NCBI GenBank assembly: GCA_036405895.1 | Contig: DASWWS010000001.1 | Coordinates: forward strand, 71,864-135,863 | DNA length: 64,000 nucleotides | Origin: Minisyncoccota bacterium | Lineage (GTDB): Bacteria; Patescibacteriota; Minisyncoccia; Phycocordibacterales; UBA9973 | Reading direction: 5' to 3' | Part shown: positions 28,480 to 30,189 of the stretch, piece by piece | How positions within the stretch are numbered: the stretch's first letter is position 1 | Layout: the number at the start of each line of letters is the position of its first letter | Notes under the pieces: model-generated | Told to the model about the DNA's origin: nothing | Seen by the model: the letters and a program-made list of their open reading frames with translations, nothing else | The model's database searches: none | Program-made: the position numbers and the translations under genes

Positions 28480-30189
28480 AGAGTTTGATCCTAGCTCAGG
28501 ATGAACGCTGGCGGCGTGGATAAGGCATGCAAGTCGAACGGACCTTGTCATATGATTTCCCAAATGAGTAGCAATACAAATGAAGGAATGATTATGACGC
28601 TGGTTAGTGGCAGACGAGGTAGTAACACGTAGGTATGTACTCTCAAGTCGTGAATAATTCGCCGAAAGGCGGACTAATACACGATAGTCCCTCCGGGGTA
28701 AAGATTTATCGCTTGAGAAACAGCCTGCGGGGTATCAGCTAGTTGGCAGTGTAATGGACTACCAAGGCTATGACGCCTAGGGGAGGTGAGAGCCTGACCC
28801 CCACCGATGGGACTGAGACACGGCCCATACACCTACGGGTGGCTGCAGTCGAGAATCTTCCACAATGGACGAAAGTCTGATGGAGCGACGCCGCGTGATT
28901 GATGAAGTGGTTCGCCACGTAAAGATCTTTTATGAGGGAAGAAGTATATTGACGGTACCTCATGAATAAGGGGCTCCTAACTCTGTGCCAGCAGGAGCGG
29001 TAATACAGAGGCCCCGAGCGTTATCCGGAATTATTGGGCGTAAAGGGTGTGTAGGTGGCGTTGTTAGTCGTATGTGAAAGCCCGGGGCTTAACCTCGGAA
29101 CCGCGTACGAAACGGCAATGCTTGAGTATGTGAGAGGTAAGCGGAACTCATGGTGTAGGGGTGAAATCCGTTGATATCATGGGGAACACCAAAAGCGAAG
29201 GCAGCTTACTGGCACATTACTGACACTGAAACACGAAAGCGTGGGTAGCGAATGGGATTAGATACCCCAGTAGTCCACGCCCTAAACGATCTTCACTAGC
29301 TTTTCGGAGTATCGACCCTCTGAGAGGCGAAGCTAACGCGTTAAGTGAAGCGCCTGGGAAGTACGGCCGCAAGGCTAAAACTCAAAGGAATAGACGGGGA
29401 CTCGCACAAGCGGTGGATTATGTGGTTTAATTCGTAGGTAAACGAAGAACCTTACCCAGGTTTGAAACTGAGATGAAATCCCAAGAAACTGGGCCCTCGC
29501 AAGACATCTCAGCAGGTGATGCATGGCCGTCGTCAGCTCGTGGTTTGAACTGTTCCCTTAAGTGGGCTAACGAGCGCAACCCTTGTTGTCTGTTACAAGT
29601 GTCAGGCAAGACTGCCCAGCCCAAAGACTATATCCGGGTGCTGTGTGGAAGAATAAAGTATTTATATTTTATTCTTCCACACAGCACCTCGATAGCCCGG
29701 ATGTTCTGTGGAAAACGAGAGTATTTATATTCTTGTTTTCCACCGAGTATCCGGGAATCGGACTTTCAGTGGAGTGAAACAGTATTTATATTGTTTTGCT
29801 CCACTGAGAGTCCGACCGATGTAGTTTTCGGGCTGGGAGGAAGGAGAGGATGACGCCAGGTCAGCATGTCCCTTTGATATCTGGGGCCACACACATAATA
29901 CAATGGCAGCTACAAAAGGTCGCAACGGAGCGATCCGAAGCCAATCCTAAAAGGCTGCCCTAGTTCGGATAGGAGTCTGCAACTCGACTCCTTGAAGTTG
30001 GAATCGCTAGTAATCGCAGGTCAGCCAAACTGCGGTGAATACGTTCTCGAGTCTTGTACTCACCGCCCGTCAATTCAAGGGAGCCGGTAGTACCCGAAGG
30101 CTCTCCATACGGAGGGACTACGGTAAGATCGGTGACAGGGAATAAGTCGTAACAAGGCACGGCTAGCGGAAGCTGGTCGTGGATTAACT
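28480..30189 (+). rRNA. 16S ribosomal RNA (~1.71 kb) carrying an internal ~190-nt insertion, and not followed by a 23S gene
   Basis: 5' AGAGTTTGATCCTAGCTCAG. GTGCCAGCAGGAGCGGTAATAC (two mismatches to the universal 515 site). GGATTAGATACCC. GCAACGAGCGCAACCC. TGTACTCACCGCCCGTCA. AAGTCGTAACAAGG. Leader 28438-28448 (TTGCCTCAGTC) pairs with trailer 30357-30367 (GACTGAGGCAA), forming a processing stem. Confidence 0.85.
29630..29820 (+). other. Insertion or expansion segment inside the 16S gene, made of three tandem ~60-nt hairpins
   Basis: GTGCTGTGTGGAAGAATAAA-GTATTTATAT-TTTATTCTTCCACACAGCAC and two diverged copies. All three keep the loop GTATTTATAT and the GTGGAA/TTCCAC stem core. The insertion interrupts the helix GCCCAGCCC...GGGCTGGGAGGAAGG, which is equivalent to E. 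coli ~1160-1175. Confidence 0.75.

What the first reader, a model, noticed from the sequence alone, without database searches (positions are those of the whole stretch)
29630..29820. A ~190-nt insertion in 16S made of three tandem stem-loops with an identical GTATTTATAT loop
The conserved 16S helix GCCCAGCCC...GGGCTGGGAGGAAGG (E. coli ~1160-1175) is interrupted by three consecutive ~62-nt hairpins. The first is a perfect 20-bp inverted repeat around GTATTTATAT. The next two are diverged copies with compensatory changes that preserve pairing and the same AU-rich loop. The insertion is too short to encode a homing endonuclease and has no group I/II intron signatures. It looks like a lineage-specific expansion segment, or a non-coding intron carrying a repeated protein-binding loop.
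Basis: seen in the sequence. Interest (0 to 1): 0.65.

Follow-up and report, generated by a model that had tools for sequence, protein, structure and literature searches.

The report
Modular hairpin array in 16S helix 40
The only 16S rRNA gene in this window, from a CPR/Patescibacteria bacterium, carries three ~60-nt hairpins at the tip of helix 40, each capped by the same UUUA loop; relatives carry one to four such hairpins or none, so the insertion is real, clade-specific and selected as RNA, but it is not known whether it stays on the ribosome or is cut out.

Summary
In the 16S gene (28473-30194, +), 212 nt (29621-29832) replace the 4-nt loop of helix 40. They form a 19-bp base stem carrying three 58-nt hairpins of about 27 bp, each with a UUUA loop (MFE z = -22).

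It is not an artefact. The same architecture occurs in 23 other distinct 16S genes from independent CPR assemblies, with 1 to 4 modules. Across 55 distinct modules the loop is invariant, 94% of positions pair, and 25 of 27 pairs show changes on both sides. G·U outnumbers A·C 205 to 22, so the sense RNA is what is selected. Modules are positional orthologues, and no copy was found outside h40.

It is not an intron of any Rfam family, not coding, and not a dispersed or viral repeat.

Its fate is unresolved. I lean slightly towards a retained, factor-binding expansion segment (about 0.42). Removal by RNase III as an intervening sequence is nearly as likely (about 0.40); the rnc gene lies about 5.3 kb upstream.

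Noticed in passing: the whole clade has lost the anti-Shine-Dalgarno tail, and genes in the window look leaderless. Helix 40 sits beside that site.

The parts
28473..30194 (+). 16S rRNA gene. It is the only rRNA gene in the window and is not linked to a 23S gene.
   Evidence: Rfam RF00177, 1355.8 bits, model positions 1-1533.
29621..29832 (+). The whole inserted segment: 212 nt in place of the 4-nt apical loop of helix 40.
   Evidence: cmscan local alignment shows *[212]* against *[4]* at model positions ~1157-1162.
29615..29634 (+). 5' strand of the h40 base stem: CCCAGCCC (8 bp), an unpaired A, then AAGACUAUAUC (11 bp).
   Evidence: Inverted repeat I4, MFE structures, and all 19 pairs present in eight 3-module genes.
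29634..29691 (+). Hairpin module 1: a stem of about 25 bp with UUUA loop at 29661-29664.
   Evidence: CM R1 hit of 76.1 bits on the sense strand against 45.9 on the antisense strand; fold -40.0 kcal/mol.
29697..29754 (+). Hairpin module 2: 26 bp plus one U·C mismatch, with UUUA loop at 29724-29727.
   Evidence: CM R1 hit of 69.0 bits; fold -34.6 kcal/mol.
29758..29815 (+). Hairpin module 3: 27 bp with UUUA loop at 29785-29788.
   Evidence: CM R1 hit of 72.3 bits; fold -42.3 kcal/mol.
29818..29837 (+). 3' strand of the h40 base stem: GAUGUAGUUUU, an unpaired C, then GGGCUGGG.
22485..23177 (+). rnc gene for RNase III (RNase III domain plus dsRBD). This is the enzyme that would excise the array if it is an intervening sequence.
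   Evidence: Pfam PF14622 at 3.5e-35, PF00636 at 6.3e-23, PF00035 at 8.4e-16. The catalytic signature NERFEFLGDA is present.
30181..30200 (+). 16S 3' tail GGAUUAACUCAAAUUGAGAU, which lacks the anti-Shine-Dalgarno CCUCC. This is context: according to published structures it lies near h40 in the 30S subunit.
   Evidence: the tail is identical in all 32 other 16S genes recovered with this region readable, whereas outgroup L031 has GGATCACCTCCTTT.

Best explanation
This is a clade-specific, modular elaboration of 16S helix 40. A whole clade of Paceibacteria-like CPR bacteria first acquired a ~20-bp extension of h40. On its tip, a ~58-nt hairpin was duplicated in tandem, giving arrays of one to four arms radiating from a multi-way junction. 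The array is transcribed as part of the single 16S gene. Each arm folds locally into ~27 bp of A-form helix capped by an invariant UUUA tetraloop on an A/U-rich closing helix (AGUA/UAUU), with a conserved GUGG/CCAC box 12-13 bp below the loop. My preferred reading is that the arms stay on the mature 30S subunit as an expansion segment. Published structures place h40 at the neck, beside the mRNA exit and the 16S 3' end. There the arms would display several identical loops as docking sites for one trans-acting factor, most plausibly a protein that reads the tetraloop. On this reading, the central G-C box and/or the bound factor shields the duplexes from the cell's RNase III. Shown: the architecture, its recurrence, RNA-level and sense-strand selection, positional orthology of modules, confinement to h40, and absence of coding or intron features. 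Inferred: retention in mature rRNA, the existence and identity of the ligand, and protection from RNase III.
For: Position: the insertion sits exactly in the h40 apical loop and the helix below it is intact. Recurrence: 8 genome and 26 metagenome contigs from independent projects carry 16S genes of the same clade, and all are genomic contigs with non-rRNA flanks. Size series: normal h40; then a simple 20-bp extension; then 1, 2, 2 plus a short arm, 3 and 4 modules. The same 8 bp + bulge + 11 bp base is kept wherever UUUA modules are present. That is the accretion pattern typical of expansion segments. Selection on the modules: in 55 distinct modules the loop UUUA is invariant, 94.4% of cells pair (40-56% when the partner is slid), 25 of 27 pairs change on both sides, and 0 of 500 shuffles reach any measure. 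G·U+U·G is 205 against A·C+C·A 22, and sense-strand CM scores are ~30 bits above antisense. Age: the nearest neighbour of 52 of 55 modules lies in another gene at the same ordinal position, so the duplications are old and have been maintained through 6-16% 16S divergence. Conservation pattern: it is the reverse of a junk spacer. The apex and a mid-stem box are fixed while the stems drift under pairing constraint; the base stem is 100% identical in eight 3-module genes; and a GAUR motif recurs in the first junction linker (sequences). Truncated arms are capped by UUCG or UUA on 7-8 bp stubs, with covariation in the stub. Site: E. coli tolerates an insertion at 1153-1162, on the solvent side (PMC2441807).
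Against: No RNA data were available, so retention is not shown. The genome encodes an apparently intact RNase III, which CPR bacteria generally keep (PMC12641178). Near-perfect 25-27 bp duplexes are classic RNase III substrates. Insertions in CPR rRNA genes are reported to be absent from transcripts, and short ones without an ORF are suspected to be IVSs (PMC11270868 and PMC9297842 citing Brown 2015). Close relatives lack UUUA modules altogether or carry other elaborations (L029, L034, L022/L032, L030), so the modules are dispensable. No candidate ligand was identified. The GUGG box sits 11-13 bp from the loop rather than at a fixed distance.
Confidence: 0.42

Rival explanations
1. Intervening sequence (IVS). 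The array is transcribed and folds as shown, but RNase III (rnc, 22485-23177) cuts the arms and/or the base stem during 30S maturation. The mature 16S then lacks the array and is split at h40 into ~1.15-kb and ~0.36-kb pieces held together by the remaining stem. On this reading the conserved loop and box are determinants that keep each arm removable. In a sub-variant, they serve the released ~30-60-nt hairpins.
For: The size (about 200 nt), the position at a helix tip and the paired ends match the published definition of IVSs as '100-200 nt forming an additional stem, excised by RNase III' (PMC8708148). RNase III is present and looks intact. The pre-16S also has the usual leader-trailer pairing (28431-28450 with 30357-30376). 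The arms are 94% paired over 27 bp. Arm length is bimodal, either full length or a stub of 8 bp or less, which fits 'cleavable or harmless'. Copy number is labile between close relatives. There is CPR precedent for removal from transcripts, and Tsurumaki et al. suggest that short uncharacterised insertions are IVSs.
Against: Bacterial RNase III is not known to read loops (my knowledge). An invariant UUUA with fixed closing pairs across 55 diverged modules is therefore unexplained unless an extra factor or a post-excision role is invoked. Cutting the base stem alone would remove everything, which would leave no reason to maintain each arm. The modules are old positional orthologues rather than sporadic, horizontally moving elements. 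The site is not among the known IVS sites that I could find.
Confidence: 0.4
2. A selfish DNA-level palindromic element (REP/MITE-like, or a hairpin recognised by a transposase or nuclease) that inserted into the rDNA and amplified there. On this reading the hairpin matters in single-stranded DNA rather than in RNA.
For: The units are palindromes that vary in copy number. Truncations look like palindrome deletions. G·T wobble pairs would also be tolerated in single-stranded DNA of the sense strand.
Against: No copy exists outside h40. This holds for the 64-kb window, for 274 kb of window plus related loci searched with a covariance model, for 185,579 species genomes where all 8 exact-pattern hits are in 16S h40, and for 2.9 million viral contigs with 0 hits. 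No transposase or nuclease ORF lies inside the insertion. The modules are ancient positional orthologues, with only 3 of 55 closest to a module in the same gene.
Confidence: 0.04
3. A spliced intron (group I, group II, or archaeal-type bulge-helix-bulge), removed with ligation of the flanking 16S sequence.
For: CPR rRNA genes are rich in introns (PMC11270868).
Against: No Rfam intron family reaches even a relaxed threshold; the only hits are sub-threshold, generic hairpin-shaped matches to miRNA precursors. The base stem has a 1x1 A/C mismatch, not a 3-4-3 bulge-helix-bulge (read directly from the sequence). The insertion lies in a hairpin loop, not in a conserved core site typical of homing introns.
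Confidence: 0.03
4. Assembly artefact or chimera.
For: Contigs of relatives sometimes break inside the hairpins (L013, L004).
Against: The same architecture, with orthologous modules, appears in 23 other distinct 16S genes from unrelated assemblies (GenBank MAGs, ENA, JGI). These sit on contigs of up to 353 kb with normal flanks.
Confidence: 0.005

Closest known systems
Short 'uncharacterised' insertion sequences in CPR rRNA genes (Brown et al. 2015; Tsurumaki et al. 2022 and 2024, PMC9297842 and PMC11270868)
   Same: Same host group (CPR). A 16S insertion of 100 nt or more with no ORF and no group I/II intron signature. [quoted passage not shown]
   Different: Those surveys catalogue lengths and positions only. 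I found no description of a tandem, copy-number-variable hairpin array with an invariant tetraloop, and none of h40 as its site. The insertion-site positions are given only in figures that I could not read.
Bacterial rRNA intervening sequences (23S helices 25 and 45 in Salmonella, Campylobacter, Coxiella and others; 16S IVSs in Caedibacter, Helicobacter and Campylobacter)
   Same: About 100-200 nt replacing a helix-tip loop. The ends pair into a long stem. RNase III is present in the host. Distribution among relatives is patchy (PMC8708148).
   Different: Classic IVSs form one long stem, sometimes with an ORF, and have variable loops. They are sporadic and thought to spread horizontally. Here there are 1-4 equal arms with an invariant loop, inherited vertically as positional orthologues, at a site not reported for IVSs. 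Excision was not tested.
rRNA expansion segments (eukaryotic ES, Asgard ES9/ES39, mycobacterial H54a)
   Same: Growth from the tip of a conserved peripheral helix with the ancestral helix preserved. The size is graded between lineages. The stems are free to covary. The site tolerates insertions (PMC2441807).
   Different: Known bacterial expansion segments are single irregular helices. This one is built from repeated, near-perfect, equal-length modules with an identical loop. Retention is unproven.
Tetraloop-guided RNase III substrates (yeast Rnt1p AGNN hairpins) and polycistronic pre-miRNA clusters
   Same: A conserved tetraloop with conserved closing pairs and a conserved box about one helical turn below it. 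Several ~60-nt hairpins lie in tandem. The only Rfam matches, all sub-threshold, are to miRNA-precursor models.
   Different: The host is a bacterium and the loop is UUUA, not AGNN. The box-to-loop distance varies by +/-1 bp. No cleavage data exist. This is a resemblance in how it might work, not evidence of membership.

Membership tests
Bacterial rRNA intervening sequence (IVS) | Extra sequence replaces the apical loop of a conserved rRNA helix | tested here: met
   212 nt in place of the 4-nt h40 loop.
Bacterial rRNA intervening sequence (IVS) | The ends of the insertion pair into an extended stem; size about 100-200 nt | tested here: met
   A 19-bp base stem. The size is 212 nt here and ranges from 96 to 289 nt in UUUA-module-bearing relatives.
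Bacterial rRNA intervening sequence (IVS) | The host encodes RNase III | tested here: met
   rnc at 22485-23177 with catalytic signature and dsRBD.
Bacterial rRNA intervening sequence (IVS) | Excised from the precursor without re-ligation, giving a fragmented mature rRNA | not testable with these tools
   No transcript data. All recovered contigs are genomic.
rRNA expansion segment | Grows from a peripheral helix while the ancestral helix is preserved; length is graded among lineages | tested here: met
   The series runs from 0 through a simple extension to 1-4 modules on a conserved base.
rRNA expansion segment | Solvent-exposed site that does not clash with functional centres | not tested
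   Inferred from the literature only. An insertion at E. coli 1153-1162 is tolerated (PMC2441807). h40 lies at the neck near the mRNA exit (PMC5995498, PMC10901742).
rRNA expansion segment | Retained in the mature rRNA | not testable with these tools
   Needs RNA-seq, a Northern blot or cryo-EM.
Group I / group II self-splicing intron | Catalytic core recognisable by covariance models | tested here: not met
   No intron family at gathering or relaxed thresholds. The sequence is fully accounted for by four plain helices.
Archaeal-type bulge-helix-bulge intron | A 3-nt bulge, a 4-bp helix and a 3-nt bulge at the exon-intron junctions | tested here: not met
   The base stem shows only a 1x1 A/C mismatch between the 8-bp and 11-bp segments.
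REP/MITE-like dispersed palindromic repeat | Many copies dispersed in the genome, mostly intergenic | tested here: not met
   No copy outside h40 in the window, in 274 kb of window plus related loci, in the species-genome collection or in viral contigs.
Protein-coding insertion (homing endonuclease or IVS protein) | A conserved ORF within the insertion | tested here: not met
   The window ORF 29473-29853 is not on record as a gene product. An open frame across the insertion exists in only 14 of 28 genes, in different frames and strands.

The most novel reading that the evidence does not exclude
The array is kept on the mature 30S subunit. It forms part of a remodelled mRNA-exit and initiation site in a clade that has lost the anti-Shine-Dalgarno tail and translates leaderless mRNAs. 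One to four identical UUUA-capped arms at the neck would act as a multivalent landing pad for a clade-specific factor or for mRNA 5' ends. The pad would stand in for SD-aSD recruitment, or block nucleases that dock on h40, and it would be tuned by gain and loss of whole modules.
Probability: 0.1. Interest if true: 0.85.

Novelty: new variant of a known kind. Interest (0 to 1): 0.55.

Why it matters
Insertions in CPR rRNA genes are known but have been treated as introns or junk. This one is neither a recognisable intron nor drifting junk. It is a repeated RNA module with an invariant loop, maintained by selection across a family- to order-level clade, and it sits beside the mRNA exit and the 16S 3' end.

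If the array is retained, it would be, as far as I could find, the first modular bacterial small-subunit expansion segment, and it would imply an unknown ribosome-associated factor. If it is excised, it would be a previously undescribed h40 IVS that gives a fragmented 16S in CPR, with loop-dependent recognition that bacterial RNase III is not known to have. One RNA-seq experiment can decide between the two.

The co-occurring loss of the anti-SD tail and the leaderless gene starts make this clade a natural system for studying SD-independent initiation.

There is also a practical consequence. These palindromes break assemblies, as seen in contigs L013 and L004. They lengthen 16S by 100-290 nt and may distort length filters and chimera checks in 16S surveys.

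Tried and rejected
- Tandem Repeats Finder found nothing, because the copies are ~70% alike and fall below its threshold.
- Dispersed repeat: rejected. I used a motif search in the window, an exact-pattern scan of species genomes and viral contigs, and a covariance model over 274 kb. The single marginal hit, at 49836-49908 (E = 0.08), does not fold better than shuffles (z = -0.9).
- Known RNA family: Rfam at relaxed thresholds gave only sub-threshold, generic hairpin-shaped hits to miRNA precursors.
- Coding: the 126-aa ORF spanning the insertion is not on record as a gene product and is not conserved.
- Internal promoter or terminator: none found in the insertion.
- Transcripts: every related contig has genomic flanks. 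Logan contigs of the same organism (SRR11449186 and SRR11449187) break at the 16S 3' end. No evidence for or against retention could be obtained.
- Literature: Brown et al. 2015 is not held. The 16S insertion-site positions in Tsurumaki 2024 are given only in figures. No paper was found for h40 insertions or expansions in bacteria beyond the E. coli Tn5 study.
- New 3' tail pairing with mRNA leaders: rejected. 5-mers complementary to the tail occur upstream of 12 of 41 genes, against 9.2 +/- 2.7 at random positions.
- A 16S tree on 400 nt was too short to order gains and losses. It shows only that module number changes between close relatives.
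Full report
**What is there.** The window holds one rRNA gene, a full-length bacterial 16S at 28473-30194 on the + strand (RF00177, 1355.8 bits). It has no adjacent 23S gene. An RNase P RNA lies 4 kb downstream.

The gene is 1722 nt long. A local covariance-model alignment shows that 212 nt (29621-29832) stand where the consensus has the 4-nt loop of the hairpin at model positions ~1157-1162. That hairpin is helix 40, E. coli ~1161-1175.

The segment contains three direct copies of a 56-nt unit, spaced 63 and 61 nt apart and 70-71% identical. 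Each unit is an inverted repeat. An outer inverted repeat (29615-29634 / 29818-29837) encloses all three. The predicted fold is a four-way junction: a 19-bp base stem (8 bp, a 1x1 A/C mismatch, 11 bp) and three arms of 25-27 bp. The MFE is -154.9 kcal/mol against -59.9 +/- 4.3 for shuffles, z = -22.

The 12-mer AGTATTTATATT is identical in the three arms and is absent from the rest of the 64 kb. In the fold it forms four closing pairs, A-U, G·U, U-A and A-U, around the tetraloop UUUA.

The only refinements are that the true loop is UUUA and that the insertion includes an extension of h40 itself.

**It is real and clade-wide.** An exact-pattern scan of one genome per species (GTGGA-N7-AGTATTTATATT-N7-TCCAC) found 8 CPR metagenome-assembled genomes, labelled Paceibacteria/Paceibacterota, Minisyncoccia, Nomurabacteria and 'Saccharibacteria'. 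Every match lay in a 16S gene at the same site.

A metagenome scan with a 16S signature of this clade, the swapped h35 sequence TTCCCTTAAGTGGGCTAACGAGCGCAACCC located 60 nt upstream of the insertion, gave 26 more contigs. All 34 contigs carry non-rRNA flanks. Their 16S genes are 78-94% identical to the window's, so none is the same organism.

The h40 region forms a graded series:
- a normal 7-bp hairpin in the outgroup L031;
- a plain 20-bp extended hairpin (L026, L029, L033, L034);
- other irregular elaborations (L022/L032, L030);
- 1 module (L007, L027, L015);
- 2 modules;
- 2 modules plus a short UUCG- or UUA-capped stub;
- 3 modules (the window and seven others);
- 4 modules (L008/L025, L016, L028).

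An assembly artefact is excluded.

**It is selected as RNA, on the 16S strand.** From 23 distinct arrays I extracted 57 modules, of which 55 are distinct.
- The loop UUUA is invariant.
- The three closing pairs are nearly invariant, and their few variants are compensated (AGA-UUUA-UCU, GUG-UUUA-CAU).
- A GUGG/CCAC box 11-13 bp below the loop is kept in 45-50 of 55 modules.
- The remaining stem positions show up to six pair types.
- Over 27 pairs, 94.4% of cells are standard pairs, against 40-56% when the 3' partner is slid by 1-3 columns and 72% in shuffles.
- 25 of 27 pairs have changes on both sides, and no shuffle out of 500 reaches any of the five measures.
- G·U plus U·G pairs number 205 and A·C plus C·A only 22.
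- The covariance model scores the sense strand about 30 bits above the antisense strand for every module.

The structure is therefore maintained in the sense transcript, not as double-stranded DNA or antisense RNA. In eight 3-module genes, 53 of 99 predicted pairs carry compensatory changes, while the 19-bp base stem is 100% identical in sequence.

**How it evolves.** For 52 of 55 modules the most similar module lies in a different gene, usually at the same ordinal position. For example, the last-position types AGUGAAA and AAUGAAAAA and the second-position type GUGGUA recur across genes. The duplications are thus old and the modules are positional orthologues. There is no sign of recent amplification or concerted evolution.

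Module number nevertheless differs between close relatives. The window has 3, L003 has 2, and L011 has 2 plus a stub; L012 has 3 and L007 has 1. Truncated arms keep only the lowest 7-8 bp. This looks like gain and loss of whole palindromic units.

**What it is not.**
- It matches no Rfam family. No group I or group II intron is found, and only sub-threshold matches to generic miRNA-precursor hairpins appear.
- There is no bulge-helix-bulge motif.
- There is no conserved ORF. The 126-aa ORF 29473-29853 is not a known gene product, and relatives are open in only 14 of 28 cases, in mixed frames.
- There is no internal promoter-like or terminator-like site.
- It is not a dispersed or viral repeat. 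No copy lies outside h40 in the window, in 274 kb of window plus related loci, in the species-genome collection or in IMG/VR.

**How it most likely works.** Two readings remain, and I cannot separate them without RNA data.

Evidence for a retained expansion segment:
- The conservation pattern is the opposite of a spacer that merely has to be removed. The loop, its closing pairs, a mid-stem box, the base stem and a GAUR motif in the first junction linker are all fixed, while the stems drift.
- The graded accretion sits on an h40 extension shared by the whole clade.
- The stubs have stable caps.
- The h39/h40 site tolerates an insertion in E. coli and is solvent-exposed (PMC2441807).
- An invariant loop shown one to four times suggests a multivalent docking site for one factor.

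Evidence for an RNase III-removed intervening sequence:
- The size, the helix-tip position and the paired ends fit the published definition (PMC8708148).
- An intact rnc gene lies 5.3 kb upstream. RNase III is one of the few ribonucleases that CPR bacteria retain (PMC12641178).
- 25-27 bp of near-perfect duplex is what RNase III cuts (my knowledge).
- Insertions in CPR rRNA genes are reported to be missing from transcripts, and short ORF-less ones are suspected to be IVSs (PMC9297842, PMC11270868).

Weighing these, I put retention at about 0.42 and RNase III removal at about 0.40. The removal figure includes a roughly 0.07 sub-case in which the released hairpins have a function of their own. 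A DNA-level selfish palindrome gets 0.04, a spliced intron 0.03 and an artefact less than 0.01. The conserved GUGG/CCAC box can be read either as an RNase III antideterminant that protects the arms or as a cleavage determinant. That is testable in vitro.

**Context noticed on the way.** h40 lies at the neck of the 30S subunit, next to the mRNA exit and about 40 Å from the 16S 3' end. It is contacted by YbeY, Nob1 and RNase R (PMC5995498, PMC10901742).

In the window and in all 32 other 16S genes recovered with this region readable, the 16S 3' tail reads GGAUUAACUCAAAUUGAGAU instead of GGAUCACCUCCUUA. Each of those genes has an extended or elaborated h40. The anti-Shine-Dalgarno core is therefore gone. 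Only the outgroup L031, which has a normal h40, keeps CCUCC.

The genes in the window agree with this:
- SD-like motifs occur upstream of 5 of 41 genes, against 4.5 +/- 2.0 at random positions.
- A -10-like hexamer ends 4-14 nt before the start codon in 10 of 41 genes, against 1.1 +/- 1.0 at random positions and a maximum of 5 in 1000 trials. This is the signature of leaderless mRNAs.

The co-occurrence of the h40 extension and anti-SD loss may reflect a single ancestral event, so it is not evidence of a functional link. It does place the array in a region of the ribosome that this clade has remodelled.

**Comparison and novelty.** The general class, short ORF-less non-intron insertions in CPR 16S genes, is published. 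I found no description of this modular, copy-number-variable, UUUA-capped hairpin array, nor of h40 as an insertion site.

It shares its position and size with IVSs and its accretion pattern with expansion segments. It resembles tetraloop-guided RNase III substrates and pre-miRNA clusters in form only. I rate it a new variant of a known kind, of moderate to good interest, with a clear experiment that would decide its nature.

Noticed in passing
window 30181-30200; the same tail in L001-L030 and L032-L034: The 16S 3' tail is GGATTAACTCAAATTGAGAT instead of GGATCACCTCCTTA, so the anti-Shine-Dalgarno CCUCC is absent. The tail is strictly conserved, even beyond the canonical 3' end, in all 32 other 16S genes recovered with this region readable. 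Only outgroup L031, which has a normal h40, keeps CCUCC. CUCAAAUUGAG could form a 4-bp mini-hairpin.
   Followed up: partly
window, upstream of 41 ORFs of 150 aa or more (for example 16442, 21501, 11024, 3793, 60235-): There is no SD enrichment: 5 of 41 genes against 4.5 at random positions. TATAAT-like hexamers end 4-14 nt before the start codon in 10 of 41 genes, against 1.1 +/- 1.0 at random. This suggests widespread leaderless mRNAs, consistent with the lost anti-SD.
   Followed up: partly
window 21501-23177: A NusB-NUDIX fusion protein (21501-22406) lies directly upstream of rnc (22485-23177). Both are rRNA transcription or processing functions and sit 5-7 kb upstream of the 16S gene.
   Followed up: no
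window 28260-28346, 28431-28450 and 30357-30376: Two promoter-like sites precede the 16S gene (TTGACT-16-TATAAT, 11 of 12 matches, and TTGAAA-16-TAAAAT). A leader segment, UUUUCUCUUGCCUCAGUCUA, is complementary to a trailer segment, UAGACUGAGGCAAAAGAAAG. This is the usual RNase III-type stem flanking a 16S. The leader segment can alternatively pair with GAGGCAAG at 28399.
   Followed up: partly
window 29553-29582 and 29590-29605; 28545-28600: This 16S has other idiosyncrasies. The h35 pairing is swapped (CCCUUAAGUGGG in place of GGGUUAAGUCCC), which serves as a clade signature. h39 is shortened by about 15 nt. There is a 50-nt elaboration of h6/V1.
   Followed up: no
L015 207-259; L017 270-400; L022/L032; L030: Relatives carry alternative h40 elaborations. 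One is a second module type with apex AAAGAUUUAUCU and internal loops on a different base stem (CCCAAUGUACAUGA...). Another is a single long G·U-rich irregular hairpin (L022/L032). A third is a two-arm irregular structure (L030). UUUA is kept in the second module type as well.
   Followed up: partly
L013 position 1; L004 right end: Two contigs of relatives end inside a hairpin module, L013 exactly at the apex. These palindromes probably break short-read assemblies, so such 16S genes are likely under-recovered.
   Followed up: no
window 34127-34465: A bacterial class A RNase P RNA (116.4 bits) lies 4 kb downstream of the 16S gene. The same 16S to RNase P spacing is seen in L006 and L007, so synteny is conserved.
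   Followed up: no
window 3016-12232: A cluster of three pilin-like proteins with the N-terminal methylation motif, together with large secreted proteins carrying cohesin, dockerin, fn3 or Big_6 domains and an endosialidase-chaperone domain. This may be surface-attachment machinery typical of episymbiotic CPR bacteria.
   Followed up: no
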